DNA of 64,000 nucleotides from an uncultured Pirellulales bacterium (GCA_964399535.1 CAYNRE010000070.1:402252-466251); one strand, 5' to 3'; positions 33,837 to 59,487 are shown, counted from the stretch's first letter. Notes: generated by a model not told the origin, from the sequence alone. Program-made: numbers and translations.

Positions 33837-34117
33837 AGTGCCAGACTCCAGAGGTTCGCAGAGGCTGCTTTATTGTGTCCGTCGAGGGCGCCTCGCCAAG
33901 CGATCGGCCGATTCGCCCGACCGGCGGCCAGCGGCTGGTAGTTTATCATCCGCGAGCTGCCCCATGGGCCCGAAAATGAGGGAAAGCGGTGCCTGGTTGA
34001 CAGCTATAGGAAGTCCCTTGTCAAGGCAGACCTCGAGCGGTGGCCCGATTCTTCTTCTTGCAAGGGGGGGTGACCTGTTTCACCCGCTCTGAGACATTTT
34101 CGGCTTGCCGCTAGCAA

Positions 34118-34219
34118 CGACGTCAACAACGCCGAAGGGGAGGATGATCGGCACGCCGGCAAGCTGACTCACTCCCTCTTCGACCGCCGTATCGGCCAAT
34201 TCGGTGAGCACAACCGGGG
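34118..34219. repeat. ~102-bp direct repeat, copy 2 (near-identical to 35043-35144)
   Basis: acgacgtcaacaacgccgaagggga[g/c]gatgatcggcacgccggcaagctgactcactccctcttcgaccgccgtatcggccaattcggtgagcacaaccgggg is present twice with 1 mismatch. On the minus strand it encodes PVVLTELADTAVEEGVSQLAGVPI(M/I)LPFGVVDVV. Confidence 0.85.
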
Positions 34220-34320
34220 TTGCCGCCGCGGCCGCTACCGGGGGGGCGCTTCGACCTGTGTCGGTGATCCGAACAGAGCACTGCTGGACAAGCCAGCAGT
34301 GGCAGCCGACGAGACTTCGC

Positions 34321-34680
34321 TTATTCACGAATGGGAAACTTGTCGCAGCCTTCTGTATTCCACCAATTCTGTACTGCATGTCGTCCACTTGGTTCGAGGT
34401 GAAACCACAGCGCGTCAAACGAGAATCGTGGAACCTGTTCCGCGGCTATTGGGCTAACATCACCAGAAGGCGGTTGCTCCGCGCATGGTGTTACCAGTCC
34501 AAGAGCCATTAACTGTTCAAGCGCGTTGATAATTTCTGACGACGTGAACGCACTTCCACGGGCCGCTCGCCAACTGGAATCGTGCTCGTTATTAAGCATC
34601 CGAATAATTGAGTCGACGTTTTCAATTTCGTCATCCTGCATGACGTCGGCCACACACATCCGCACTTCTTCTGGTGTCAT
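34321..34680 (-). CDS. small acidic protein, candidate immunity protein
   Basis: 119 aa, acidic, no signal peptide. It sits 2 bp downstream of the toxin-like gene inside the low-GC cassette. Confidence 0.4.
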   Translation of the reverse strand: MTPEEVRMCVADVMQDDEIENVDSIIRMLNNEHDSSWRAARGSAFTSSEIINALEQLMALGLVTPCAEQPPSGDVSPIAAEQVPRFSFDALWFHLEPSGRHAVQNWWNTEGCDKFPIRE

Positions 34681-34682
34681 TG

Positions 34683-35651
34683 TCAGTCCACCTCGCCAAT
34701 TCGTGGCTTATACGTTGGTCGAAAATGATCGTCCAGGATTCTGCCAGCAGCGTCAGTAACGCGGTGTCGGACGATTGATTCGCCCGTCTGCGGATTGCGG
34801 TAGATGATTTGTTCGCTTACGCCGCCTCGCGCCCTCATTGACGTTGCCGGTTCAGCATGAATCGATTGCGGCACCCAGTCGCTCGGCTTCTTAGTGATGT
34901 CAGCGAGCTTGTCGGTGAACGTGCGACCAGCATTCCTACTTGCCGCTCCCGCCGCGTCGCCCGATCGCCCCCCCTTCGAGGCGACCGATTCGGCGACTTC
35001 CTCCAGACCCTCCTGGGCGAGCTTCTTGACGCCTAGTTTGGCAGCGTCCTGGACGACGTCAACAACGCCGAAGGGGAGCATGATCGGCACGCCGGCAAGC
35101 TGACTCACTCCCTCTTCGACCGCCGTATCGGCCAATTCGGTGAGCACAACCGGGGCGGCTGCCGCGCCGGCAGCGCCGGCGGTCACGGCTCCCAGGCCGG
35201 CGGCAGTCAGCGCGGCCGCGCCGCCGAGCGCCGCCGCCGAAGTGCCCAGCGCCAGCTTCTGCGCCGTTTGCAGATCGGCGTCCATCTCTGAGGGATGGAT
35301 CAGAAAGTGCCAATAGTCGCCCAGGCTCGGCCAATCCCACGAGGCGTCGCTCGCCGTGCCCGGCCTCTCGGCCATCCGCTCGCGCAGCGCCAATTCGTGC
35401 AGCGCTTCCAGGCTGCGCGGGTCAGGCCGAGTGCTGAGCGGGTCGAAGCTACGTATGCGCTCTTCGGCTTCGGCCAAGAACGCTGCGTGTGCGGCGCGGC
35501 GAGCGGCCGCGGCGCGCTCGGCCTGCTGGACGCGGGCAGCGGAAAGCGCCGCAAGCTCGTCGAGCCGCCGAGCGATTTCGAGCAGCTTTTCGCGGCGTTC
35601 CCAGTTGTAAATCGGCTCGGCCAAGCGCACTGCCCCCGTGTGCGCGGCCAA
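34683..35651 (-). CDS. membrane-associated protein with Gly/Ala-zipper helix and variable C-terminal domain (candidate polymorphic toxin)
   Basis: Coiled-coil N-region, then LALGTSAAALGGAAALTAAGLGAVTAGAAGAAAA (glycine-zipper TM-like), then the repeat-encoded PVVLTELADTAVEEGVSQLAGVPIMLPFGVVDVV, then a low-GC C-terminal ~120 aa (...EQIIYRNPQTGESIVRHRVTDAAGRILDDHFRPTYKPRIGEVD). No family recognised. Confidence 0.45.
   Translation of the reverse strand: MAAHTGAVRLAEPIYNWERREKLLEIARRLDELAALSAARVQQAERAAAARRAAHAAFLAEAEERIRSFDPLSTRPDPRSLEALHELALRERMAERPGTASDASWDWPSLGDYWHFLIHPSEMDADLQTAQKLALGTSAAALGGAAALTAAGLGAVTAGAAGAAAAPVVLTELADTAVEEGVSQLAGVPIMLPFGVVDVVQDAAKLGVKKLAQEGLEEVAESVASKGGRSGDAAGAASRNAGRTFTDKLADITKKPSDWVPQSIHAEPATSMRARGGVSEQIIYRNPQTGESIVRHRVTDAAGRILDDHFRPTYKPRIGEVD
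35043..35144. repeat. ~102-bp direct repeat, copy 1 (within toxin-like CDS)
   Basis: Same sequence as 34118-34219. Sequence between the copies (about 34220-35042) is ~50% GC versus ~67% flanking. Confidence 0.85.
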
Positions 35652-35975: not shown

Positions 35976-36596
35976 GTGTCTCAAGATGCCCGGCAACGAA
36001 TCTTCGACGCCGCCTTTACCGTCGCTGCCCGCGACGGACTGCTCTCGATGACCCTCGACAACGTGGCCAAAGAGGCGGGCATCAGCAAGGGTGGACTCAC
36101 CTACCACTTTCCCTCGAAGGATGTGCTGATTCGCCAAATGCTCGAAGCATTCGGCGACCGGGTGGTTCAACAACTTTCGGTCCGCGTGGCTGCCGACCCC
36201 CAGCCCCGCATGCGCTGGGTTCGCAACCTGTTGGCCTGTGCCCTGGCCGACCCCATCGAGGGCAACCAGGCGCTGGAGCCCATCGACGCCGAGATGACCG
36301 AACGGTTCATGCTCACCGCCCTGGCGGCCGCCATCTATTCGCCCGGGCTGTTCGAGCCGCTGCTGCGGATGGGGCTCGAACTGAAGCAACAGGTGCTCGC
36401 CGAACAGGAAGGGGGCATGGACCAACTCCTGCTTTGGCTGGCGGTCGATGGCCTGTTCCTGTGGCGGTTTATCGGCATGATTCGCCGCGACGACCCGCTC
36501 TTTGATCAAATCGTGGCGGCCCTCAGGCGACAAGTTGCGCCGGACCCAGCCGAGGCGAGCGCCTCGACGGCCTGCGAGGAAGGTGCCGTGCGATGA
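35976..36596 (+). CDS. TetR/AcrR-family transcriptional regulator
   Basis: GTG start. RIFDAAFTVAARDGLLSMTLDNVAKEAGISKGGLTYHFPSKDVL is the TetR HTH signature. The long ORF on the opposite strand (35871-36812) is a shadow. Confidence 0.8.
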   Translation: MSQDARQRIFDAAFTVAARDGLLSMTLDNVAKEAGISKGGLTYHFPSKDVLIRQMLEAFGDRVVQQLSVRVAADPQPRMRWVRNLLACALADPIEGNQALEPIDAEMTERFMLTALAAAIYSPGLFEPLLRMGLELKQQVLAEQEGGMDQLLLWLAVDGLFLWRFIGMIRRDDPLFDQIVAALRRQVAPDPAEASASTACEEGAVR

Positions 36597-37732
36597 GCCT
36601 TTCCCGCTGGCCCCGACTCGCCTGGCTGTTGGCCGCCATGGCGGGCATTTCCTGTCTGGCTGCTCTGGTGGCCGGCTACGCGCTGCTGGTCGCGGGCCGC
36701 CAATCTGCGGTGGCCACCGAAGCCGCCGCCCAGGCCGGCAGTTTGCCGCGCCGGGTACACGCCCTGGGGCGGCTGGAGCCGGCCGGCCGCATTCGCCAGG
36801 TAGGCCCCTCATCGGGCAGCGATTTCGCCCGCGTCGAAAAACTGCTCGTGACCGAGGGAGACAACGTCGAGGCGGGCGCCCTGCTGGCCCTGTTAGACCA
36901 TCACCCTCGCCGACAAGCCGCCCTGGCCGAGGCCCAGGCCAAGCTCGACGAAGCCCGCGCGCGGCTCGCCCAGATTCAGGCTGGCAGCAAGCAGGGTGAT
37001 ATCGAGGCCCAGCGCCAAGCAGTTGCTTTGCTCACCGCACAGCAAGACTACGCCGCCCGCGAATTGGCTCGGGCCAAGCAACTGCATGGCCGCCAGGTGC
37101 TGCCGGTGGAAGAGCTCGATCAGAAGCAGTGGGCCTGGGAAAAACTTTCGATCGAGAAGCGCCGAGCCGAGCAGACCTTGGCCAGCCTGGAAGAGGTGCG
37201 CCCGGTCGATCTGGAGGTCGGCCGCCAACAGGTAGCCGCCGCCCAGGCCAGCTTGGCCCGCGCCCAAGCCGAGCTCGAAGCCGCCGAGGTGCGCGCCCCA
37301 GTCGCCGGGCGCGTTCTGAAAATTCATACCTGGCCCGGCGAGCGGCTCGGCAACGACGGTTTGTTGGAAATGGGCGACGTGGCCCAAATGGAGGCCGTGG
37401 CCGAAGTATTCGAGGCCGACCTGGCCGGCCTGGCCTTGGGCCAGCGGGCCGAGTTAACGCTCGATTCCTCCGGCCAGGTGCTCACCGGCCAGATTAGCGA
37501 ACTGGGCCACCTGGTGGCCCGCAAGGCGATACTCTCCAACGACCCGGTAAGCGATACCGATGCCCGCGTGGTCGAAGTGCGCATCCGGCTCGATGCCGCG
37601 GGCGATTCGCAGGTAGCCCGCTTGTCGAACGCCCGGGTCGAGGTGACGATCGAGCTCGATGCCGGCTCGCCTCCACCGGAAAGCAGCGACCAACCGCCGG
37701 GCTCGCTGGCCGGCCGCCCGACCAGGCCCTGA
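36593..37732 (+). CDS. HlyD/DevB-family periplasmic adaptor for ABC exporter
   Basis: Single N-terminal TM, long coiled coil, and a C-terminal beta-domain (VRAPVAGRVLKIHTWPGERL). ATGA overlap with the TetR stop. Confidence 0.75.
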   Translation: MSLSRWPRLAWLLAAMAGISCLAALVAGYALLVAGRQSAVATEAAAQAGSLPRRVHALGRLEPAGRIRQVGPSSGSDFARVEKLLVTEGDNVEAGALLALLDHHPRRQAALAEAQAKLDEARARLAQIQAGSKQGDIEAQRQAVALLTAQQDYAARELARAKQLHGRQVLPVEELDQKQWAWEKLSIEKRRAEQTLASLEEVRPVDLEVGRQQVAAAQASLARAQAELEAAEVRAPVAGRVLKIHTWPGERLGNDGLLEMGDVAQMEAVAEVFEADLAGLALGQRAELTLDSSGQVLTGQISELGHLVARKAILSNDPVSDTDARVVEVRIRLDAAGDSQVARLSNARVEVTIELDAGSPPPESSDQPPGSLAGRPTRP

Positions 37733-37735
37733 TCC

Positions 37736-38890
37736 ATGCGCGGCAGCCTGACGATTGCCTGGCGGCAATTGAGCCATCAGCGAATGAAGCTGGCCGTGGC
37801 CGCGGCCGGCGTGGTGGTGGCCGTAATGCTGATGCTGGTGCAGCTTGGCATTCGCCAGGGAGCGCTGGATAGCTCGGTCGCCTTCGCCCAGCGCATCGAC
37901 TCCGACCTGGTCGTGGTCAGCCCCCGCACCCGCACCATCTTTCAGCCCACCCCCTTGCCACGGCGGCTGTTGTTTCGCCTGCCGGCACATCGCCAGGTTC
38001 AGGCGGTGGAAGAGGTATACATCAGCCAGGGGCGCTTCCGGAATCCCTACGATTTACAAGAGTACCCGGTCACCATTTACGGCCTCGACCCGCGGCGCAG
38101 CCTGTTACGGCTGCCGGGGCTGAGCGAGTTTGCCCGCCCGCTCGAACTGCCCGACCGGGGCATCCTCGACGGCTTGTGCCGAAACTCCTACAGCAAGGTA
38201 GTAGCCGACTTGGGCACGCGAAACCGCTTGCCAGTCGAGGTGAACCATCGCCGCATCGACCTCTTGGGCACCATTCGCGTGGGGGTGCCGATCAGCGTCG
38301 ACGGCGCGCTTTACACCACCAACAGCAACTTCTTGCGCATGTTTCCCGGCCGCCACGCCGGGGCGATCGACCTGGGCCTGGTGCAGCTGGCTCCCGGGGC
38401 CGATGCCGCCGCGGTGCGCGACGAGCTGCGCGGGCTCGTGGGGCGCGAAGCCCGGGTGCTAACCCGCCAAGAGCTGGTCGAGGCCGAGGTGCGCCATGTG
38501 CGCGTGACCGCGCCCATCGACTTTATCTTTGGCATGGGCGTGGTCGTGGGCTTCTTCATCGGTTTTGTCGTGGTCTACCAGATTCTGTACACCGAGGTGG
38601 TCAACCATCTGCCGCAATTCGCCACGCTCAAGGCCATGGGCTTTACCAACGGCTACCTGCTGCGCGTGGTGCTGGGCCAGGCCGCAATCTTGTCGATGCT
38701 GGGCTACTTTCCCGGGGCCATCCTGGCCATGGTGGTGTACCAGATCACCACCACCGCCATTCAAATGCCCGTGAGCATGACCGCCGGCCGGGCCCTGGGC
38801 GTGCTGTTTACCACCTTGGCCATGTGTGGGCTTTCGGCCATGGTGGCCGTGCGCAAGGCTCGAACCGCGGACCCCGCCGATGTCTTCTAA
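37736..38890 (+). CDS. ABC transporter permease, DevC/MacB (FtsX-like) family
   Basis: N-terminal TM, large periplasmic domain, and C-terminal 3-TM FtsX-like bundle (FIGFVVVYQILYTEVVNHLPQFATLKAMGF). Confidence 0.8.
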   Translation: MRGSLTIAWRQLSHQRMKLAVAAAGVVVAVMLMLVQLGIRQGALDSSVAFAQRIDSDLVVVSPRTRTIFQPTPLPRRLLFRLPAHRQVQAVEEVYISQGRFRNPYDLQEYPVTIYGLDPRRSLLRLPGLSEFARPLELPDRGILDGLCRNSYSKVVADLGTRNRLPVEVNHRRIDLLGTIRVGVPISVDGALYTTNSNFLRMFPGRHAGAIDLGLVQLAPGADAAAVRDELRGLVGREARVLTRQELVEAEVRHVRVTAPIDFIFGMGVVVGFFIGFVVVYQILYTEVVNHLPQFATLKAMGFTNGYLLRVVLGQAAILSMLGYFPGAILAMVVYQITTTAIQMPVSMTAGRALGVLFTTLAMCGLSAMVAVRKARTADPADVF

Positions 38891-39602
38891 CTGCCCCGCC
38901 CCCAGCGCCAGCCCCACCCGCCCCGCCGAACCCGTGGTTTCGGCCGAAGGAGTGAATTTCAGCTTCGGCACGGGCGAACTAGCCAAACAGATTCTCTTCG
39001 ATGTCTCGCTGGAGATCGCCCCGGGCGAAATCGTGCTGCTCACCGGGCCCAGCGGCAGCGGCAAGACCACGCTGCTCACCTTGATCGGCGCCCTGCGCCA
39101 TGTGCGCCAGGGGCGGTTGCGGGTGCTTTCACACCAGCTCGATCAGGCCGGCGCCGACGAACTGGTGGTGGTCCGCCGGCAGATTGGTTTTATCTTTCAG
39201 CAGCACAACCTGCTGCCGTTCCTCACGGCCCGGCAAAACGTGGAACTGATGTTCCAACTTCGCCCCGAGGCCCACGGCCAGGCCCGCGCCCGCACCGAGC
39301 AGCTACTGGCCAGCGTGGGGCTGGCGGACCGGCTCGATTACTACCCCGACAAGCTCTCGGGCGGGCAGCGTCAGCGGGTGGCCATTGCCCGAGCGCTGGC
39401 CCTTACGCCCGATTTGATTCTGGCCGATGAGCCCACGGCGGCGCTCGACAGCCAGTCGGGCCGCGACGTGGTGAACCTGCTGCAAGACCTGGCCCGGCGA
39501 CAGGGTAGCCCGATCTTGTTGGTCACCCACGACAGCCGGATTCTGGACATCGCCGACCGCATCATCCACATGGAAGACGGCCGCGTCTCTCAGGAGCGGT
39601 AG
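38880..39602 (+). CDS. ABC transporter ATP-binding protein (DevA/MacB-ATPase-like)
   Basis: Walker A GPSGSGKTT, signature LSGGQRQRVAIARAL, Walker B ILADEPTAALD. Overlaps the permease by 11 bp. Confidence 0.85.
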   Translation: MSSNCPAPSASPTRPAEPVVSAEGVNFSFGTGELAKQILFDVSLEIAPGEIVLLTGPSGSGKTTLLTLIGALRHVRQGRLRVLSHQLDQAGADELVVVRRQIGFIFQQHNLLPFLTARQNVELMFQLRPEAHGQARARTEQLLASVGLADRLDYYPDKLSGGQRQRVAIARALALTPDLILADEPTAALDSQSGRDVVNLLQDLARRQGSPILLVTHDSRILDIADRIIHMEDGRVSQER

Positions 39603-39786
39603 CGAGGGCGGCTCAAGATAGCAGAGACCAACGTCCACTGCCGGCTTGCCGCGCCTCTCTTCGCCCGCGGAAACCCATACTCCCCCACAAAAACGGGCGA
39701 GGAACCGGAATTCTCTTGCGTTTCACGATCACTTGCTATAAAGACCATCTTAGTCCGCACCACATCTTGCAGCAAAGGGGGCTCGA

Positions 39787-40131
39787 ATGCAGACGTCTAC
39801 TAAAACCGCCATGTTCATCGTCGCCATGCTTATGGTCGTCTCATCGCGCGCAGCGCACGCTGTTTGGACTGACGCACAAGGAATGCAGGTCGTCCCGATG
39901 GCAACTTCGGCTGGTTTAATTGGTGGAAAACCAAACTGTCCGAAGTTTACGCCAACCGACACTGCTGAGGTCTATTGTTGTTATGAAGGCCCCGAGAGCC
40001 AATGTGACGGGAGTTATAATTTCGAGTTTTACGATCACACCGACCCTGTAGGTGCCGCAAAAAAGGTAGTGCCATGTACCACGCTGACCACCTGTGGAAA
40101 ACCGAGTGCGACAGGTTGCAGCGGAAGTTAG
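39787..40131 (+). CDS. small secreted Cys-rich protein (7 Cys in ~90-aa mature part)
   Basis: Signal peptide MQTSTKTAMFIVAMLMVVSSRAAHA. Mature region contains NCP, YCCYEG, QCDG, PCTT, TCGK and GCSGS. Local GC is ~50%. Confidence 0.45.
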   Translation: MQTSTKTAMFIVAMLMVVSSRAAHAVWTDAQGMQVVPMATSAGLIGGKPNCPKFTPTDTAEVYCCYEGPESQCDGSYNFEFYDHTDPVGAAKKVVPCTTLTTCGKPSATGCSGS

Positions 40132-40218
40132 TTTAGGACTCGATCCATGGTGGTCGCCAAAAGCGCTCGTGGGATCGTGCGATGGTGCCTCCGGCCAAGC
40201 GCGACTTTACGCTTGGCC

Positions 40219-40953
40219 ATGGGCGAGAAGGTGAGCGCCACGAACGGGGTGTCTCTAAAGCGAGCAAGGTGCATTGCATTAAGTCTATGCGCAATCCTTG
40301 TGTTGAGCTGCCTTCGAGCCCATGCAAGCGATCAGACGGCGAACCTATCTGAAGTCGACCTTGAATCGCTTCGATCGGCCCAAGCAATTGATTCTTCCGA
40401 ATCATTGCCGCTTGCCGACGAACATGCGGCACGGAGGTTTCTCGCGAACCACCCGCTGCCGACTCGCGCGGTCCTGCCGGAATGTGGGCCGAATGCGCTA
40501 TTTTTTTTGCTGAATCTCTGTCAAGCGCCGGCAACTCTCGACCAAGTTCGATCCCTGGTCGAGCTCGGCCAGCACGGCGCAAGCCTGGAGGAACTCAGAC
40601 GAGTCGCGGTCCAGCTGGGGCTTGCGGTACGGGTCATGAAGTGCAGTCCCGTGGCACTTAGCGGGCGCGAACCGCTCATTGCCCTGCAGGGTGACCCATC
40701 ACCCGGTGGTGGTGGACATTACGTAGTCGTGCTCCGACGGGGTGATCAGGGGCGTGCAACCACCATCGATGGCACCACGGGAGAGCTCCGCCGACTACCG
40801 CCCGGGTCGTTCGACCGCGATTTCTCCGGTTTTGCACTAATCCCTGCCGATCATGGGCCGACGGCGCTTGAGTCTGGCTGGGTAACGATCGCCCTGATGG
40901 GCGTGGTCGTTGGGGAGTGTGCTCTGCTCATCCGATTTTGGCGGCGAGCATGA
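40219..40953 (+). CDS. secreted/membrane-anchored peptidase C39-like (papain-fold Cys protease) domain protein
   Basis: Signal peptide, then LPECGPNALFFLLNLCQ (catalytic Cys in a CGxxA context) and GGGHYVVVLRRGD (catalytic His of the C39/'HYVV' type), then a C-terminal TM WVTIALMGVVVGECALLI. Confidence 0.55.
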   Translation: MGEKVSATNGVSLKRARCIALSLCAILVLSCLRAHASDQTANLSEVDLESLRSAQAIDSSESLPLADEHAARRFLANHPLPTRAVLPECGPNALFFLLNLCQAPATLDQVRSLVELGQHGASLEELRRVAVQLGLAVRVMKCSPVALSGREPLIALQGDPSPGGGGHYVVVLRRGDQGRATTIDGTTGELRRLPPGSFDRDFSGFALIPADHGPTALESGWVTIALMGVVVGECALLIRFWRRA

Positions 40954-41041
40954 GCTCACACTTAAGCCCGCTATATCCGCTGCGAGTAGGTTCTGTCGCA
41001 CGGGGTTGCTGCCTGGAGCTGTTGTCGCATGAACTCCCGCT

Positions 41042-42394
41042 GTGATTTGCCCATCCCAAGCTACTGAGTTGCATCCCCGCTTTGACAAGTCTTCGCTCGC
41101 CGCATCATCAAAGCTGAAAGCCGTCCCTGTGCAACTTCATTCGTCGCGACTCTACTGGATCGTGCTGTTGGCACTTACCGGAGTTGCCGCAACCCCCTGG
41201 CTGCGCAGTACCGCCAATGCGCGACGTGATTCACTGAAGTCCTTCGATCCACGAGCCAACACAAGGCAAGCGGACTCGCGCTTAGACGAGGGCAATCGGC
41301 GCTCTCGATCGTACCGAAATGCCCCCTTGTCAATCGCGCCAAGGCCTGGTTTCGAGCGCTGCGTTGGTTCGGCGCAACTCGCTACCGTAGCCGGACGCGT
41401 TGTCCCGACCTGGGATACGTTGAAGATCGGCAGCCTGGTGCACGCCCTTCGAGTTTGGGGCGCCGACCCCGGTGTGCCTTGCCACGAAGGACTCGCCCCG
41501 TATCCCTCGGCGCTCCGCTTTTCGCCGATTGAATTATACGAAGTGCTGTTAGACCATCGCCAGTTCCGTGCTGTGTTTCCCGGGGAAGCTCCACTGCTCT
41601 GGAAGACCCCTTATGGCATCCGAGTTCGTGTATGGCCATCGTGGTCGGGAGATTTCGCAGGGCAATCTGGGCATATCGACGATCTACTGTCGGCGTGCGC
41701 AGAAATCGGACTTCCACTTTCTTCGCCCGTGAAGGCAGCCGATTGTGACGGCACGATTCTCGACCTGCTGCATGATTCGGTGCTGCGATTTCAATGGGAC
41801 CAAGAGTTGGAATGGACGCTCGATGCTTTCGCCCGATACCTACCACCGAACCGAACTTGGGTGAATCGGTTCGGCGAACGGTTTTCTTTTGACAAGTGTT
41901 GCCGCCGCTTACTGGAACAGCCGATTGGCCGTGGGGCATGTTACGGCACTCACACGCCTTACACCTTGGCGGTGGTGCTTGCCTGCGACGAACAAATTCG
42001 GATTCTTTCCGAAGAATGCCGAATGGCTGTGCAGCAGCGACTCGAACAGGTCGCAACGATGCTGCATAACTCCCAGCGACCAAACGGCGCTTGGGATTCC
42101 AGTTGGGCATCGGGGATGCGAGCGCAAAACTCGCACGAGGATTCTCAGTGGGTAGAATTGACGGTCACTGGACACATGCTCGAGTGGCTGGCCTACGCAC
42201 CAGCTTCTTGCTGTTTTACCCCTGATGACGTACGTCGCGCGGTGGAATACTTGCATCACCACATTCAATCATGTTCTGACCACGCGCAGTCGCTTTACTA
42301 TCTACCCCATTCCCACGCCGTTCGCGGCATGCTGCTCTTGTCTGGAAACTGCATGTCGCGCGTCGTGCCGCCTCCGCGTCAGGGAGAGAACTGA
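41042..42394 (+). CDS. N-terminally anchored hypothetical protein, possibly alpha/alpha-toroid (prenyltransferase/terpene-cyclase-like repeat)
   Basis: TM LYWIVLLALTGVAA. SQRPNGAWDSSW resembles a QxxDGxW toroid repeat. Several Cys/His clusters are present. The LanC motif order is not satisfied. Start is uncertain. Confidence 0.3.
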   Translation: MICPSQATELHPRFDKSSLAASSKLKAVPVQLHSSRLYWIVLLALTGVAATPWLRSTANARRDSLKSFDPRANTRQADSRLDEGNRRSRSYRNAPLSIAPRPGFERCVGSAQLATVAGRVVPTWDTLKIGSLVHALRVWGADPGVPCHEGLAPYPSALRFSPIELYEVLLDHRQFRAVFPGEAPLLWKTPYGIRVRVWPSWSGDFAGQSGHIDDLLSACAEIGLPLSSPVKAADCDGTILDLLHDSVLRFQWDQELEWTLDAFARYLPPNRTWVNRFGERFSFDKCCRRLLEQPIGRGACYGTHTPYTLAVVLACDEQIRILSEECRMAVQQRLEQVATMLHNSQRPNGAWDSSWASGMRAQNSHEDSQWVELTVTGHMLEWLAYAPASCCFTPDDVRRAVEYLHHHIQSCSDHAQSLYYLPHSHAVRGMLLLSGNCMSRVVPPPRQGEN

Positions 42395-42509
42395 TTGACT
42401 GCACCTGGCAAACTGTCTCAAGGGGGTGCCACAGGCGCACTCGTTGCGGAAACCGCCTTCCCCGCTCCATCGGGTAGGTTCGCCGATGACCCTTAGGCCG
42501 GAGCGATCC

Positions 42510-43688
42510 ATGCTCACCGCGCGACTCAACCGCCGCCCTACCCAAAGCGGCAACCGGCCGCGGTTCGCGCTTCGGGCGATTGCCGTTGCGCTTGTTGCGA
42601 GCACCCTCTCGAACTTGCAAGCCCAGGTGCCGGTCGGCGGTATCAAGGCTAGTTCCCTCGCCCCTGGCGGGATGAGCTGGCCCGAGGCCATCGAATCGGC
42701 TCCTCCGGATCTGCGTGAGCTCGCCGTTGCAATGCGGCAATCGCAGCAAGCGCTTCTGGAATGGCCGGAAGGTTTGTCGCTTAGCTATACGCTGCGAGTT
42801 GAACAAGACCCTCGATCCGGTCCCATGGCCTTTGAATCGGGAGTGGGAGAGATACGCGTCCGCTGGCCAAACCTCTATAGTCGATTCGGAGCATTGCTCC
42901 GCGCTTCCGACGGGTCGCTCGTCGATACGGTCCGAGAAGCAAGTCACGATTTTTCGCTTGGCTGCGGGACCGCGCTCGACACGGCCAAGCAAGGGTATCT
43001 GGTGCCCTACCGGCACGCCTGGTCGTGCCATTACCTGTTTCCCTTACGGCTGCTTTTCTGGCCCGTTTCCGAACAGCGATATCGATCCGAGCGATGCCTC
43101 GGGGGAGACTATTGGCTGCCCGACGCCCTGGTCGCCCGGGGAGCAGAATTCGCAATCGAAGGCCAGGAATCGGTCAACGGAATCGAGTGTCGCGTGGTTC
43201 GGCGAGGCCGCGCCGATGCGATTTGGGTAGCCACAGGACACGGAATGCTGGTTTGCCGCCGGGAACTTCGCTCGCCCGATACCGGCGCCCTCTGGGAAAC
43301 GCAGCTTGCCGAACAACTGCGTGAATGGGCCCCCGGCGTTTGGTTGCCGTCGCGGTTACAACAAACCGTGTACTCGCGCCAAGACGGCCGCCCGGTATAT
43401 GCCATAACCTGCCAGCTCGGCCAGGTCGTGGCGGGCCAAACCACCGTGGAACAAACCCAGCTTCGCATTCCACCGGGAACCCTGGAGGTTCAGGACCAGA
43501 TTCGCAATTTGGTCCTTCGCAATCCCGAAGGACCGGACCCAATCCTTGCCGCGCTGGGCGAGGCTCGCCAGGAACTGGCCAGCCGCCCCGCCGCGCGCCC
43601 CCCGTTGTTGACTTGGGCCCTGACCGGCCTGGCGGGGGCGCTCGGTCTTTTGATCGTGGTGTTGGCTTGGTTTCGCCGCGTGGGCTAA
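42510..43688 (+). CDS. secreted protein with C-terminal membrane anchor (hypothetical)
   Basis: Signal peptide MLTARLNRRPTQSGNRPRFALRAIAVALVAS. C-terminal LLTWALTGLAGALGLLIVVLAWFRRVG. No recognisable domain. Confidence 0.4.
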   Translation: MLTARLNRRPTQSGNRPRFALRAIAVALVASTLSNLQAQVPVGGIKASSLAPGGMSWPEAIESAPPDLRELAVAMRQSQQALLEWPEGLSLSYTLRVEQDPRSGPMAFESGVGEIRVRWPNLYSRFGALLRASDGSLVDTVREASHDFSLGCGTALDTAKQGYLVPYRHAWSCHYLFPLRLLFWPVSEQRYRSERCLGGDYWLPDALVARGAEFAIEGQESVNGIECRVVRRGRADAIWVATGHGMLVCRRELRSPDTGALWETQLAEQLREWAPGVWLPSRLQQTVYSRQDGRPVYAITCQLGQVVAGQTTVEQTQLRIPPGTLEVQDQIRNLVLRNPEGPDPILAALGEARQELASRPAARPPLLTWALTGLAGALGLLIVVLAWFRRVG

Positions 43689-43712
43689 CTTTGACAACTT
43701 GGAGAGCGCTGG

Positions 43713-45347
43713 ATGTTGCAGCGCGGTTTCGCAAGGCAAGCCTGGCTAGCCTACGCGGTCATCGTCGCGGGTGCCTGGGCGCTCGCCGAGGCTCTGCTTC
43801 CCCATGGCTGGAGCGGCTGGGCCTGGTTCGCACTGGCGCCGTTGGCAGCGCTGGTTCGAAGACCAATGCATCGATATCTCGACTATGCTTGCGCGTACGG
43901 CGCCGGCTGTTTGTTTCATTTGCGGGCACTCGACTGGGTTCGCACTTCCTATGCCCACGAAGGCTACTTCACCTCCTGGGCCCTTTGGTGGATCACGCTC
44001 GGCGGATTGCTGGCCCTGTTGTGGCCCACGGCGCTGGTTATCGCTCGACAATTGGCCCTCGCGCCGGTGTTGCCCTTAGCCCTCGTGTGGCCCGCGGCCT
44101 GGGGCCTGGCCGAATGGCTGCGCGACGCGATCTTCACCGCGAGTCTAGGCCAGCCCTATCCGTTAGTCCACCTGGGAATTACTCAGGTCGATCGCAGCGG
44201 CCTGGCACCGGCTGTGCAACTCGGCGGTGGTGAAATGGTGGTCGCGGTCTTGATGTTCGCCAACGGGGCGCTGGCCGATCTAGCTACGGTGAGTAGCCGC
44301 CGAGCACTCGGTAACCTCATGGTCGCGCCTGCCGCTTTCGGATTGGCCGTGTGGGCGATGGGAGCGGTAGCGTATCCATTGCCACAACCACTAACCGGTA
44401 CGGCCCTCGTGGCCCTAATCCACACCGATACGGTTTATCAGCTCGTTGCCACGCGCCATCGAGCGCTCGCCCACCAACTGGGCCTACCATTGGCTCCAAA
44501 ACCATGGCTCGCTCCGGACTGGTTTCAGGCAGCGAATCCCCCGTTGATCCTGACCACGGAGCGAGCCCTGCCTGGGTTGGTAGAGGTTCCCCTGGCTTCG
44601 GCAAGCAGGACCTCGCCGCCCCTGGTCGGGCGGACGAGCATCCCCGATTACAACCCCTGGCCGGCGCTTTGCCAGTTTGCGCAATGCCACCGCGCCACGC
44701 TGATGCTGGGCCTTACACGCAGGCTCGCTCGCCCCAACGCGGCAAGCGCCAACGCACTGGTTGGGATTTCGCCCGCTGGCGAGATTGGCCCGATTTACGA
44801 CAAGGCCTTCCTGGTACTGGGCACGGAACAGGATTATCCCTTGCTTCGTCGCTTGGGCAGACTGCCCGAGGTTCCCTTCACGCCTGGAACCCAGTGGCCG
44901 CGATTCGTCTGCGACGGGCGAGGGAAACGGCCGTTGTCGGTCGCGCCGCTGATTTGTTACGACGTGTGCTTTAGCCGGCCGTTCGACGCTCAAACCAACT
45001 CGCAACGATCCGACCACGCTGAGCCCGTCAGTTTTTGGATCGCCTCGGGCGATGAGACGGCCGACGATACCGGTCAGCTTGCCGACCGAATGCTCCGATT
45101 CACGCGGCTTCGCTCCATGGAATACCAAAGAGCCATTGTTCGGGCCGTTGCTGGCGGCTATTGCGGAGTCGCCTGGCCCGACGGTCGCTGGTCACCGGCG
45201 GCCGAGCCCCTTGCTTCCAAGCCGGCTTTGTGCCAAGTACCGAGCTTCGACGAATCGCCGGTGGGCCGACCACGCCGATGGCTGTCGCTGGCATTCTGCT
45301 GCGCGATCGCGCTCGCGGCGCTACTGGCCCGTTGGCAGGGCCGCTGA
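43713..45347 (+). CDS. apolipoprotein N-acyltransferase (Lnt)-like protein: polytopic N-domain + CN-hydrolase domain
   Basis: Multiple N-terminal TM helices. The C-terminal nitrilase-fold carries PLICYDVCFSRP (catalytic Cys, as in the ICYE motif of Lnt). No Glu/Lys triad was verified. Confidence 0.55.
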   Translation: MLQRGFARQAWLAYAVIVAGAWALAEALLPHGWSGWAWFALAPLAALVRRPMHRYLDYACAYGAGCLFHLRALDWVRTSYAHEGYFTSWALWWITLGGLLALLWPTALVIARQLALAPVLPLALVWPAAWGLAEWLRDAIFTASLGQPYPLVHLGITQVDRSGLAPAVQLGGGEMVVAVLMFANGALADLATVSSRRALGNLMVAPAAFGLAVWAMGAVAYPLPQPLTGTALVALIHTDTVYQLVATRHRALAHQLGLPLAPKPWLAPDWFQAANPPLILTTERALPGLVEVPLASASRTSPPLVGRTSIPDYNPWPALCQFAQCHRATLMLGLTRRLARPNAASANALVGISPAGEIGPIYDKAFLVLGTEQDYPLLRRLGRLPEVPFTPGTQWPRFVCDGRGKRPLSVAPLICYDVCFSRPFDAQTNSQRSDHAEPVSFWIASGDETADDTGQLADRMLRFTRLRSMEYQRAIVRAVAGGYCGVAWPDGRWSPAAEPLASKPALCQVPSFDESPVGRPRRWLSLAFCCAIALAALLARWQGR

Positions 45348-58279: not shown

Positions 58280-58361
58280 GGAGGGTATGCGAATGGCTAG
58301 CGGCCTGACTCGAAATCAGGTGCCGGGAAACCGGTTGAGGGTTCGAATCCCTTGCCCTCCG
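58280..58361 (+). tRNA. class-II (long variable arm) tRNA, anticodon CGA (tRNA-Ser)
   Basis: Acceptor GGAGGGT/GCCCTCC, anticodon stem CCTGA/TCAGG with loop CTCGAAA, and a long variable arm. The T-arm is GAGGG-TTCGAAT-CCCTT. CCA is not encoded. The D-arm could not be folded cleanly by eye. Confidence 0.55.
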
Positions 58362-58365
58362 CTTT

Positions 58366-58395: not shown

Positions 58396-59048
58396 CCACT
58401 GGTTACGGCAAGCGTTCGAGCACCAAAACAGCACCGCTTTTCGCCTCGATTTGGGGTGCCGAAAAAGGGCCACACCCAACGAACACGCAACGCGAGTCTC
58501 GGGATAGCCGCCGATCGCTTTCGCCGCCAAGAACTGGGGCACAGAGACCTTCTCGCTGGCTACCTTCATCCTGTCGGCCAGGCCAATACACCGCTGCGTG
58601 GTTGTGAAGCTGCGGGGTCGCATCTTGCGTTGCAGCACCGGCGCCGGCCGGGTGTCCGCGTTCAGGGTAGCATAGGCCCGCCGAATCGCCTGGAACCCTT
58701 AGAAACCGCAACTGGGGGTGCAGGTGCGCCGCTCGGCATCCCGACAGTCTAGGTTAATCCCCGCCGCCGACGTAAACGCCCGGCCTGAACCCTGGCCGGG
58801 GAGGCACCGCCTGACCTCCAGTGAAGATTCGCTAAACCAACATCGTCCCGCGACCCGACGCCCAGAGACTCCTTCCCCGAACCAGCGCCCCCAATTTCGA
58901 CCGCCCCGCGCCACCGTTTTCGACCGCCGTCAACCATCGTGGCTACGCTACTGGCGAATCTTCGCTGCCTGGTGTTTCGAGGGCTCGCCAAGCGCTTGGG
59001 ACGGCGGATCGGGTCGAACAATCCGAACAGGAAGGAGAGCGGTAAATC

Positions 59049-59450
59049 GTGGCGGAAGAGTTACCAGGCAAGCCGACTCCGGTAGCCGATCCGGTGAAAC
59101 TGGCCCTGGAGCGCACATTCCTCGCCTACGAACGGACACTGATGGCCTGGAATCGGACGGCGATATCCATGATTACGTTCGGCTTCGTTCTTTACAAATT
59201 CTTCTTCTATTTGCACCAGGAAAAGCCACCGACGCTTGGGGAGCAGATCTTCGGAGCGCGCACCTATGGCCTGTGCATCATAGGCATCGGGGTGCTTACG
59301 CTCGTGCTCGCGACCTGGCAGCATCGACAACAAATGCGGGCATTGCGGGAGATGTTCCCAGAAGCTCCCATGTCGCTATCGTTTGTTCTGGCGGCCTTGA
59401 TGGGAAGCCTTGGAGTGCTTGCGTTCACCGTCGGGCTATTTCGACTATAG
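59049..59450 (+). CDS. DUF202 (YidH-like) small membrane protein
   Basis: LALERTFLAYERTLMAWNRTAISM is the DUF202 signature. Three TM helices. Confidence 0.65.
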   Translation: MAEELPGKPTPVADPVKLALERTFLAYERTLMAWNRTAISMITFGFVLYKFFFYLHQEKPPTLGEQIFGARTYGLCIIGIGVLTLVLATWQHRQQMRALREMFPEAPMSLSFVLAALMGSLGVLAFTVGLFRL

Positions 59451-59487
59451 ACGGTAGATCACTCTTAACCCTTTACAGAGACTGACC

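What the first reader, a model, noticed from the sequence alone, without database searches (positions are those of the whole stretch)
39600..43700. Lower-GC island: 7-Cys small secreted protein + secreted C39-like Cys-peptidase + two membrane-anchored unknowns
GC falls to ~50-60% immediately after the devA stop, and the island carries four co-directional genes. The first is a 114-aa Sec-signal protein whose ~90-aa mature part has 7 Cys, with CC and CxG spacing. The second is a 244-aa protein with a signal peptide, a papain-like C39 catalytic dyad (…ECGPNALFFLLNLCQ… / …GGGHYVVVL…) and a C-terminal TM. The third is a 450-aa N-anchored protein with a possible QxxDGxW-like toroid repeat and Cys/His clusters. 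The fourth is a 393-aa secreted, C-anchored protein. C39 domains normally process double-glycine leader peptides when fused to ABC exporters. Here the domain is free-standing and extracytoplasmic, next to a Cys-rich Sec substrate. That suggests an uncharacterised extracellular peptide-maturation or bacteriocin-like module acquired horizontally. The upstream DevBCA exporter is adjacent but sits in normal-GC DNA.
Basis: partly seen in the sequence, partly recalled or inferred. Interest (0 to 1): 0.7.

Follow-up and report, generated by a model that had tools for sequence, protein, structure and literature searches.

The report
Periplasmic double-glycine peptide-processing module
Four neighbouring genes form an unannotated module, recurrent in Planctomycetota, in which a small cysteine-rich peptide is probably exported by the general secretion pathway and then trimmed at a classic "double-glycine" site by a membrane-tethered protease outside the cytoplasm, a step that normally happens inside the cell on a dedicated ABC exporter.

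Summary
Four co-directional genes at 39787-43688 have atypical composition: GC3 is 0.52-0.68, against about 0.80 for the rest of the window.

- **B** passes Pfam Peptidase_C39. The Cys/His/Asp triad is invariant in 16 relatives. It has a signal peptide and a C-terminal anchor.
- **C** is a membrane-anchored (alpha/alpha)6 toroid.
- **D** has a LolA-superfamily fold and a C-terminal anchor.
- **A** supplies the new evidence. A and 14 small neighbours of B in other loci all have a Sec signal peptide, then a canonical double-glycine leader, then a 48-105 aa core with 6-11 Cys. Leader positions are V-12, E-8, A-7, V/L/I-4, G-2 and G/A-1.

Six natural B-C fusion proteins place both domains on the same, extracytoplasmic side. 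B and/or D lies next to a C-family gene in 21 of 160 Planctomycetota loci, with different flanking genes and no ABC exporter within about 8 kb in the ten genome loci tested. The adjacent DevBCA is therefore probably incidental.

Best reading: Sec-dependent export followed by periplasmic double-glycine processing of Cys-rich peptides. The roles of C and D, and the biological role of the product, remain unknown. The only precedent I found for a periplasmic C39 is FapD, which has no canonical leader substrate. I rate this a new variant of a known kind.

The parts
39603..39786 (+). Intergenic region between the devA stop and gene A. It has the lowest GC in the region and is the presumed promoter/5' region of the module.
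   Evidence: GC is 0.52-0.58 in 300-nt windows. No consensus sigma-70 site was found. The sequence was read.
39787..40131 (+). Gene A: a 114-aa prepropeptide. The Sec-type signal peptide is residues 1-25, the double-glycine pro-region is residues 26-47, and the Cys-rich core is residues 48-114 (7 Cys).
   Evidence: ORF and translation. Hydrophobic N-terminus. Exact public gene call, unnamed. Leader/core dissection and alignment with 14 counterparts.
39892..39927 (+). Double-glycine leader motif VPMATSAGLIGG. The predicted C39 cleavage site is after Gly47, that is, after nt 39927.
   Evidence: It is the only match in the window's six frames to the leader pattern that is followed by a Cys-rich core. 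Position-specific conservation across 15 precursors: -12 V/I/L 14/15, -8 E 10/15, -7 A 13/15, -4 V/L/I 15/15, -2 G 15/15, -1 G/A 14/15. The window copy itself has T at -8 and S at -7.
39928..40128 (+). Predicted mature core peptide: 67 aa, 7 Cys, CCYEGP motif, Cx5C, C-terminal GCSGS.
40147..40953 (+). Gene B: a membrane-tethered periplasmic C39 cysteine peptidase (alternative start at 40219). The signal/anchor is residues 42-60 (nt 40270-40326) and the C-terminal TM is residues 244-262 (nt 40876-40932).
   Evidence: Pfam PF03412 at 39.5 bits against a cut-off of 22. Aligned to LahT150, 6mpz. TM segments.
40480..40776 (+). Catalytic residues of B: Cys113 in ECGPN (40480-40494), His191 in GGHYV (40711-40725), Asp208 in TIDGT (40762-40776).
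   Evidence: Cys, His and Asp columns are invariant in 16 of 16 B-type sequences. They align with the corresponding motifs of 6mpz.
41042..42394 (+). Gene C: an N-terminally anchored periplasmic (alpha/alpha)6-toroid protein. The TM is residues 37-54 (nt 41150-41203). In a 48-sequence alignment the fully invariant residues are H134, G192, H211, W273, C300, G302, G349, E381 and H425. E255, H304 and H378 are conserved in at least 90% of sequences. Conserved motifs are GRGACxGxH (41927-41953), the QW-like QRPNGAWDSSW (42074-42106) and TGHxLEW (42167-42187).
42510..43688 (+). Gene D: a LolA-superfamily-fold periplasmic protein with a signal peptide (residues 19-38) and a C-terminal TM anchor (residues 366-388, nt 43605-43673). 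An alternative GTG start lies at 42426.
43713..45347 (+). Gene E: an Lnt-like polytopic membrane acyltransferase homologue, 24 nt downstream of D. It is a neighbour and possibly co-transcribed, but it is not a conserved part of the module.
   Evidence: Pfam LNT_N at 35.4 bits against 27.1. TIGR00546 at 70.1 bits, below its cut-off of 132.9. GC3 is 0.71. No homologue in the other trio loci.
35976..39602 (+). Upstream context: a TetR regulator plus the DevB, DevC and DevA ABC exporter, with normal composition. Probably not part of the module.
   Evidence: NCBIfam scores against cut-offs: DevB 251.5/129, DevC 342.4/290.35, DevA 328.2/295.8. GC3 is 0.80-0.85. No DevA-like ATPase within about 8 kb of the module in 10 genome loci.

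Best explanation
Genes A to D form a Sec-dependent, periplasmic double-glycine peptide-maturation module.

**Proposed steps.**
1. A is made as a prepropeptide. A Sec signal peptide takes it across the cytoplasmic membrane.
2. The roughly 22-residue pro-region that follows carries the hydrophobic knobs at -12 and -4 and the G-G at -2/-1 that C39 peptidases recognise. Most counterparts also have the E-8/A-7 pair, but the window copy has T and S at those positions.
3. B is an active C39 cysteine peptidase held on the periplasmic face of the membrane by a C-terminal helix. It cleaves after Gly47 and frees a 67-residue core with 7 Cys. In the periplasm the core is expected to be disulfide-bonded.
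4. C (a membrane-anchored (alpha/alpha)6 toroid with an invariant His/Cys/Glu set) and D (a membrane-anchored LolA-fold protein) are obligatory partners on the same membrane face. I take C to bind or modify the peptide and D to chaperone or hand on the product. Alternatively, either may protect the producer.

**Shown here.**
- Gene content and C39 membership with an intact triad.
- Predicted topology.
- Folds of C and D.
- The conserved leader motif.
- Gene fusion and synteny.

**Inferred, not shown.**
- Cleavage at the GG site.
- Co-transcription.
- Disulfide formation.
- Any role for C or D.
- The biological role of the peptide (antimicrobial, signal or envelope component).
- Horizontal acquisition of this copy.
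For: 1. B is a C39 peptidase: Pfam 39.5 bits against a cut-off of 22. Cys, His and Asp are invariant in 16 relatives.
2. B is extracytoplasmic. It has an N-terminal signal and a C-terminal TM with a K/R tail. In six natural B-C fusion proteins, hydropathy resolves two TM helices in five and a K/R-rich loop separates the C39 and toroid domains, so both lie on the same side.
3. Fifteen small ORFs lie next to B in 15 loci. Each has a Sec-type signal, then a leader, then a 48-105 aa core with 6-11 Cys. Leader positions: -12 V/I/L 14/15, -8 E 10/15, -7 A 13/15, -4 V/L/I 15/15, -2 G 15/15, -1 G/A 14/15. The first core Cys is at +2 to +5 in 14/15.
4. This matches the published ComA consensus L-12 x3 E-8 L-7 with GG, GA or GS. 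It also matches the LahT150 co-crystal, where V-4, L-7 and L-12 sit in a hydrophobic groove (PMC6363468).
5. An a-priori pattern is present in 8 of 8 independent precursors. Shuffle frequencies are 0.02-0.08 each, giving a joint probability of about 1e-11.
6. Synteny: B and/or D sits next to C in 21 of 160 C-family loci from Pirellulales, Gemmataceae, Isosphaeraceae and Planctomycetaceae. Gene orders are permuted and flanks differ.
7. Six of nine A-like calls and eight of ten D calls are exact public gene predictions.
8. There is no ABC ATPase within about 8 kb in 10 genome loci, so export does not depend on a linked PCAT.
9. FapD shows that a Sec-exported C39 can be active in the periplasm (PMC5557850).
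Against: - No experiment shows cleavage, and the leader assignment is by sequence only.
- The window's own A lacks Glu at -8 and Ala at -7 (it has T and S).
- The usual oxyanion Gln upstream of the catalytic Cys is Arg or absent in B and several relatives.
- The C family is mostly (125 of 160 loci) paired with an unrelated, roughly 555-aa polytopic membrane protein and no peptidase. C's basic function is therefore probably not specific to peptide maturation.
- In loci L109 and L025 no A-like ORF was found.
- The D model has only moderate confidence (pLDDT 72; the other four models scored 55-60).
- Co-transcription is untested. The promoter and terminator scans were uninformative.
Confidence: 0.7

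Rival explanations
1. The module is an envelope-biogenesis or housekeeping system rather than a bacteriocin- or signal-peptide system. In this reading the toroid and the LolA-fold protein handle a glycan or lipid, and the C39 removes a propeptide from a structural Cys-rich envelope protein. Leader cleavage still happens, but the 'product' is a cell-surface component.
For: - Most C-family genes pair with a conserved polytopic membrane protein and no peptide.
- Polytopic membrane transferases recur beside the module: PMT_2 in L001, L025 and L060, MBOAT in L060, and the Lnt-like gene in the window.
- D has a lipid-carrier fold.
- The L060 precursor has long poly-Ser tracts, which are typical of glycosylated linkers.
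Against: - The module is patchy: 21 of 160 C-family loci. This copy also has atypical codon usage.
- Core sequences are hypervariable apart from the Cys residues, as expected for conflict or signalling peptides.
- The flanking transferases differ from locus to locus.
Confidence: 0.2
2. B processes something other than A, as proposed for FapD. Candidates are D, C, or the DUF1559 pseudopilin-like proteins found next to some modules. In this reading A is an unrelated small secreted protein or a peptidase inhibitor.
For: - FapD's target is unknown, and Fap proteins lack canonical leaders (PMC5557850).
- DUF1559/N_methyl genes directly follow the module in L004 and L011 and follow the C39 in L025.
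- L025 has an in-frame D-B reading frame.
Against: - The canonical leader motif is present in all 15 A-type proteins at a fixed place between signal peptide and core.
- A pattern scan of the window's six frames found no other such leader followed by a Cys-rich core.
- DUF1559 genes are, to my knowledge, very abundant in these genomes, so adjacency may be chance.
Confidence: 0.07
3. This is a split PCAT-like system. A is exported by the adjacent DevBCA ABC exporter, and B is its detached peptidase domain acting on the cytoplasmic side.
For: - DevBCA lies immediately upstream on the same strand.
- The JGI contig that carries a module also has an ABC pair upstream.
Against: - Both A and B have Sec-type N-terminal signals.
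- The B-C fusion topology puts the C39 domain outside the cytoplasm.
- None of 10 genome loci has a DevA-like ATPase within about 8 kb.
- DevBCA has normal GC3 (0.80-0.85), unlike the module.
- A 184-nt low-GC gap separates devA from A.
Confidence: 0.03

Closest known systems
PCAT/AMS transporters (ComA, LahT, SunT, CvaB): C39 peptidase domain fused to an ABC exporter, processing double-glycine leaders of class II bacteriocins, lanthipeptides, glycocins and pheromones
   Same: - The peptidase family is the same, with the same Cys/His/Asp triad.
- The leader grammar is the same: hydrophobic at -12, -7 and -4, Glu at -8, and GG or GA at -2/-1.
- The cores are small and hypervariable, as in these systems. 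Disulfide-rich cores are also seen in glycocins.
   Different: - The peptidase here is not fused to, or linked with, an ABC transporter.
- It carries its own signal peptide and a C-terminal membrane anchor, so it faces the periplasm.
- The substrates carry a Sec signal peptide ahead of the double-glycine leader, so export and cleavage are uncoupled.
- The partners are a toroid protein and a LolA-fold protein.
FapD of the Pseudomonas Fap functional-amyloid system (PMC5557850)
   Same: It is a free-standing C39 peptidase exported by Sec and shown to be active in the periplasm.
   Different: - FapD's substrate is unknown, and Fap proteins lack a canonical double-glycine leader.
- Its partners are amyloid subunits and an outer-membrane channel.
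- Here the neighbouring substrate carries the canonical leader, and the partners are different.
- Sequence relatedness of B to FapD was not tested, because no FapD sequence was available.
LolA/LolB superfamily, including LolA-like 'outer membrane lipoprotein-sorting proteins' (PF17131), DUF1329 and RseB
   Different: - D is tethered by a C-terminal TM helix.
- It matches no LolA Pfam model above threshold.
- It is about twice the size of LolA.
- Its ligand is unknown.
(alpha/alpha)6 toroid proteins: GH105/GH88 hydrolases, class II terpene cyclases, thioester domains, LanC, protein prenyltransferase beta subunits
   Same: C has the toroid fold, and it has a QW-like motif, QxxxGxW.
   Different: - C has no DxDD motif and no CGEQ thioester motif.
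- It has only one invariant Cys, whereas LanC needs Cys-Cys-His.
- The invariant set (five His, one Cys, two Glu, several Trp) matches no family that I can name.

Membership tests
Peptidase family C39 (Pfam PF03412) | Profile match above the curated gathering score | tested here: met
   39.5 bits against 22, E = 6e-10, covering profile positions 12-129 of 133. Relatives score 43.7-51 bits.
Peptidase family C39 (Pfam PF03412) | Catalytic Cys and His, plus the Asp that orients His | tested here: met
   Cys113, His191 and Asp208 are invariant in 16 of 16 aligned B-type sequences. They align with the equivalent motifs of LahT150, 6mpz.
Peptidase family C39 (Pfam PF03412) | Oxyanion-hole Gln a few residues before the catalytic Cys (Gln21 in LahT150, PMC6363468) | tested here: inconclusive
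   Relatives have W-[Q/R] 5-6 residues before the Cys. The window protein has Arg or Ala there. The structural equivalence was not checked.
PCAT/AMS bacteriocin exporters | C39 domain fused to ABC transporter TM and ATPase domains, with cleavage on the cytoplasmic side | tested here: not met
   B is 244-268 aa with no ABC domains. It has a signal peptide and a C-terminal anchor. No ABC ATPase is linked in 10 loci.
Double-glycine leader peptides | Consensus of hydrophobic -12, Glu -8, hydrophobic -7, hydrophobic -4, Gly -2 and Gly/Ala/Ser -1, directly before the core | tested here: met
   Position table for 15 precursors. Shuffle test. Consensus taken from PMC6363468. The window copy matches at -12, -4, -2 and -1 but has T and S at -8 and -7.
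Double-glycine leader peptides | The leader is the N-terminus of the precursor, with no Sec signal, and is cleaved by the cognate C39 | tested here: not met
   All 15 precursors have a hydrophobic Sec-type signal ahead of the leader. Cleavage itself cannot be tested with these tools.
LolA superfamily (D) | Unclosed beta-barrel with helical lid, that is, fold-level similarity to LolA and LolB | tested here: met
   [not shown]
LolA superfamily (D) | Match to a LolA, LolB or LolA_like sequence profile | tested here: not met
   No Pfam or NCBIfam hit for the window protein. One of 14 relatives hits LolA_like at E = 0.05.
(alpha/alpha)6 toroid enzymes (C): class II terpene cyclase, LanC, GH105/GH88 | Toroid fold | tested here: met
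   [not shown]
(alpha/alpha)6 toroid enzymes (C): class II terpene cyclase, LanC, GH105/GH88 | Family-specific catalytic motifs: DxDD for cyclases, Cys-Cys-His zinc ligands for LanC, catalytic Asp pair for GH88/GH105 | tested here: not met
   C has no DxDD. Only one Cys is invariant in the family, and the invariant residues are His, Cys and Glu. There are no Pfam hits, and Foldseek E is at least 0.05. Structural superposition of active sites was not possible, because model coordinates are not exposed.
DevBCA exporter (upstream genes) | NCBIfam DevB, DevC and DevA models above cut-off | tested here: met
   251.5/129, 342.4/290.35 and 328.2/295.8.
Apolipoprotein N-acyltransferase Lnt (gene E) | TIGR00546 above cut-off | tested here: not met
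   70.1 bits against 132.9. Only the Pfam LNT_N domain passes, at 35.4 against 27.1.

The most novel reading that the evidence does not exclude
The module could be a complete periplasmic pathway for ribosomal peptide modification. After Sec export, the toroid protein C would use its invariant His/Cys/Glu pocket to modify Cys residues of the core. Candidate reactions are thiol alkylation, prenylation or glycosylation, in the manner of the toroid enzymes LanC and protein prenyltransferase, possibly at the recurrent C-terminal C-[S/T]-G-[S/T] motif. The LolA-fold protein D would shield and pass on the resulting lipidated or hydrophobic peptide, and B would remove the double-glycine leader last. 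That would be a maturation route working wholly outside the cytoplasm, without ATP or an ABC exporter.
Probability: 0.12. Interest if true: 0.85.

Novelty: new variant of a known kind. Interest (0 to 1): 0.68.

Why it matters
Double-glycine leaders and C39 peptidases are textbook markers of ABC-coupled export of bacteriocins, lanthipeptides and pheromones. Genome-mining tools look for them on that assumption.

This module shows the same recognition grammar used after Sec export, by a membrane-tethered periplasmic peptidase, with two new obligatory partners. All of its components are named hypothetical in public records.

- It gives the poorly understood class of periplasmic C39 peptidases (FapD-like) a clear candidate substrate and cleavage site that can be tested directly.
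- It points to an unmined set of hypervariable Cys-rich secreted peptides in Planctomycetota. This phylum is of interest for natural products, and one cultured, sequenced strain carries the module (Singulisphaera acidiphila DSM 18658, AGA28036-AGA28039).
- It defines a large protein family with no Pfam match: the C toroid, with 2163 representative clusters.

Tried and rejected
**Searches that failed or were limited.**
- A genome scan with C as a single protein found nothing.
- A word-indexed search with D found nothing, not even D itself.
- The word-indexed search with the 48-sequence C profile returned only 3 proteins because of the candidate cap.
- Alignments of C (48 sequences), D and B were too divergent for pattern scans.
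I got round this by looking up exact public copies.
- The afdb50 fold library was unavailable.
- Foldseek of C against the PDB gave no significant hit.

**Ideas tested and rejected.**
- The approximately 555-aa partner (F) of most C-family genes is not related to B, C or D (hhalign probability below 1%). It is not related to window gene E or to the L001 fifth gene. It has no Pfam or PDB sequence match. My impression that it is GT-C-like therefore remains untested.
- Low GC as a family trait is rejected: the L001 module is 69% GC in a 66% contig.
- Mobile-element hallmarks were not found. There is no tRNA near the module and there are no convincing flanking repeats.
- Promoter and terminator scans were at background level.
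- DevBCA as the exporter is rejected on topology, composition and lack of linkage elsewhere.
- LanC, terpene cyclase or GH membership for C is rejected on motifs.

**Literature.** Four searches found no description of the module. They did surface the FapD precedent.

Full report
**1.

The + strand carries four consecutive ORFs after devA:
- A, 39787-40131, 114 aa.
- B, 40147 or 40219 to 40953.
- C, 41042-42394, 450 aa.
- D, 42426 or 42510 to 43688.

An identical Logan contig has the same gene calls, with D at 392 aa.

The genes upstream are a TetR regulator and DevB, DevC and DevA, all above their NCBIfam cut-offs. Downstream is a 544-aa Lnt-like gene, E. It passes Pfam LNT_N but scores below the TIGR00546 cut-off. 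After E comes a CsrA gene on the other strand, then a MarR regulator and a ClC channel.

GC falls from about 0.67 to 0.52 at gene A. It stays at 0.55-0.60 through B and C and returns to about 0.63 in D. Third-position GC is clearer: A 0.52, B 0.60, C 0.60, D 0.68 and E 0.71, against 0.75-0.87 for credible genes elsewhere in the window, including DevBCA at 0.80-0.85. The compositional island is therefore real, and it may extend into E.

**2. What each protein is**

- **B.** It matches Pfam Peptidase_C39 at 39.5 bits (cut-off 22). It aligns with the double-glycine protease LahT150, 6mpz, through the Cys, His and Asp motifs. In an alignment of 16 B-type sequences, Cys113, His191 and Asp208 are invariant. 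B has an N-terminal signal-like segment and a C-terminal helix followed by RFWRRA.

**3. The module recurs, with different neighbours**

The closest relatives of C lie on an ENA contig (L001) and a JGI contig. Both have the order small ORF, C39, C, D-like, with unrelated flanks.

Scans of one genome per species and of metagenome contigs returned 160 loci encoding C relatives. The 80 genome records are all labelled Planctomycetota, apart from one labelled only 'bacterium'.
- B and/or D lies next to C in 21 of the 160 loci. These include Pirellulales, Gemmataceae, Isosphaeraceae (Singulisphaera acidiphila DSM 18658 and Singulisphaera sp. GP187), Rubripirellula and Planctomycetaceae. Gene orders are B-C-D, C-B-D-D or D-B-C-D.
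- In 125 loci C lies next to an unrelated, roughly 555-aa polytopic membrane protein, here called F.
- In the genome set, where this was checked, no B/D locus also has F, and the C proteins of the two contexts fall in separate sequence clusters.

Six C-family representatives are natural fusions of a signal peptide, a C39 domain, membrane-spanning helices with a K/R-rich loop (two helices resolved by hydropathy in five of the six), and the toroid. This links B and C functionally. It also puts both domains on the same, non-cytoplasmic side.

One locus (L025) has D, two TM helices and the C39 in one reading frame.

**4. The substrate**

In nine loci from the genome and first searches, and in six more from the metagenome scan, a small ORF lies next to B. 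It has a Sec-type signal peptide and a Cys-rich C-terminal part. Six of nine such ORFs are exact public gene calls, all named hypothetical.

When the ORFs are aligned on a G-G or G-A pair that lies 36-47 residues from the start, the preceding residues are position-specifically conserved:

| Position | Residue | Count |
|---|---|---|
| -12 | V/I/L | 14/15 |
| -8 | E | 10/15 |
| -7 | A | 13/15 |
| -4 | V/L/I | 15/15 |
| -2 | G | 15/15 |
| -1 | G/A | 14/15 |

The first Cys of the core follows at +2 to +5 in 14 of 15.

This is the known recognition pattern of C39 peptidases. The ComA consensus is L-12 x3 E-8 L-7 before GG, GA or GS, and in the LahT150 complex V-4, L-7 and L-12 sit in a hydrophobic groove (PMC6363468).

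A pattern fixed in advance occurs in 8 of 8 independent precursors. It occurs in 2-8% of shuffles of each, for a joint probability near 1e-11.

In the window the motif is VPMATSAGLIGG at 39892-39927. It is the only such motif followed by a Cys-rich core. It predicts cleavage after Gly47 and a 67-residue core with 7 Cys. The window copy is slightly atypical, with T and S at -8 and -7.

**5. How it most likely works**

- A is exported by Sec.
- Its pro-region docks on the membrane-tethered periplasmic C39, which cuts after the double glycine.
- The Cys-rich core is released and presumably oxidised.

No ABC exporter is needed. None of the ten genome loci has a DevA-like ATPase within about 8 kb. 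DevBCA in the window has normal composition and is separated from A by a 184-nt low-GC gap.

C and D are conserved partners at the same membrane face, and their roles are inferred only. C's conserved pocket and its fusion to B suggest that it binds or modifies the peptide. D's lipid-carrier fold suggests a chaperone, hand-over or self-protection role.

C-family proteins mostly work with a polytopic membrane protein. Polytopic transferases also recur beside the module: PMT_2, MBOAT, and Lnt-like in the window. An envelope- or glycan-related role is therefore a serious rival for the biological purpose, even if the cleavage step is as proposed.

**6. Comparison with known systems**

- **Peptidase and leader.** Both belong to the C39 and double-glycine families by the tests I could run.
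- **PCAT/AMS.** The system is not a member. There is no ABC fusion or linkage, the peptidase is outside the cytoplasm, and a Sec signal precedes the leader.
- **FapD.** The only precedent I found for a periplasmic, Sec-exported, active C39 is FapD of the Pseudomonas amyloid system. Its target is unknown and its partners lack canonical leaders. The authors note that this class of C39 peptidases had yet to be characterised (PMC5557850).
- **Literature.** I found no paper describing the planctomycete module.

**7. Horizontal acquisition**

The atypical GC3, the patchy distribution and the differing flanks all fit horizontal acquisition. However, there is no integrase, no adjacent tRNA and there are no flanking repeats. 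Another copy (L001) is not compositionally deviant. I regard acquisition as likely but unproven.

**8. Verdict**

This is a recurrent, unannotated Planctomycetota module for Sec-dependent, periplasmic double-glycine processing of hypervariable Cys-rich peptides, with a toroid protein and a LolA-fold protein as new partners. It is a new variant of a known kind. The product's function and the roles of C and D are open.

Noticed in passing
Loci L005-L082 and L083-L162, e.g. L068:1642-3309 (+) next to the C-family gene: Most C-family toroid genes (125 of 160 loci) sit beside a conserved polytopic membrane protein of about 555 aa. This protein has an invariant D79/W81/H83 motif in HTDLWGH and no Pfam or PDB sequence match. 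The pair appears to be a widespread, uncharacterised Planctomycetota gene pair, and in the genome set it never shares a locus with the C39/LolA-like context.
   Followed up: partly
L004:3430-4545, L011:8925-9899, L025 about 11300-12317 (all +): DUF1559 proteins with a prepilin N-methylation motif lie directly after the module in three of ten genome loci. This could be chance, given how common these genes are in the phylum, or it could point to another C39 client.
   Followed up: partly
L025:9570-12317 (+): A single 915-aa reading frame contains a D-like domain, two TM helices, a C39 domain, a TM helix and then a DUF1559 pseudopilin. This may be a D-B fusion. The pseudopilin probably has its own start.
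   Followed up: partly
Core peptides; window 40114-40128 (GCSGS): A C-terminal C-[S/T/V]-G-[S/T/R] motif lies within the last 20 residues in 6 of 15 cores. Three residues follow the last Cys in the window, Singulisphaera and L102 copies, which is CaaX-like spacing. Its significance is unknown.
   Followed up: no
L060:9046-9579 (+), flanked by L060:6439-7902 (PMT_2) and L060:12834-14009 (MBOAT): The Rubripirellula precursor has long poly-Ser tracts at both ends of its core. It lies between a GT-C-type mannosyltransferase-like gene and an MBOAT acyltransferase gene, which hints at glycosylation or acylation of the peptide.
   Followed up: no
window 43713-45347 (+): The Lnt-like gene scores well below the Lnt equivalog cut-off (70 against 133 bits). 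It matches only the N-terminal Pfam domain, yet it keeps an LICYD motif resembling the Lnt catalytic-Cys motif (from memory). Its GC3 (0.71) is intermediate, so it may have arrived with the module.
   Followed up: partly
window 58280-58362 (tRNA-Ser) and 58718-59485 (+): The window's only tRNA is followed by a 255-aa ORF with very low GC3 (0.51) and no Pfam match. The region 59-60 kb is also low in GC (0.58). This may be a second foreign insertion at a tRNA.
   Followed up: no
L001:4614-5135 (-): A 173-aa ORF matching only the C-terminal half of the D family (E = 1e-36) lies 4 kb upstream of the L001 module on the opposite strand. It could be a truncated paralogue or a remnant.
   Followed up: no
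window 34001-35000: There is another local GC dip (0.57) about 5 kb upstream of the module. The neighbouring ORF 34683-35651 (-) has no Pfam match.
   Followed up: no
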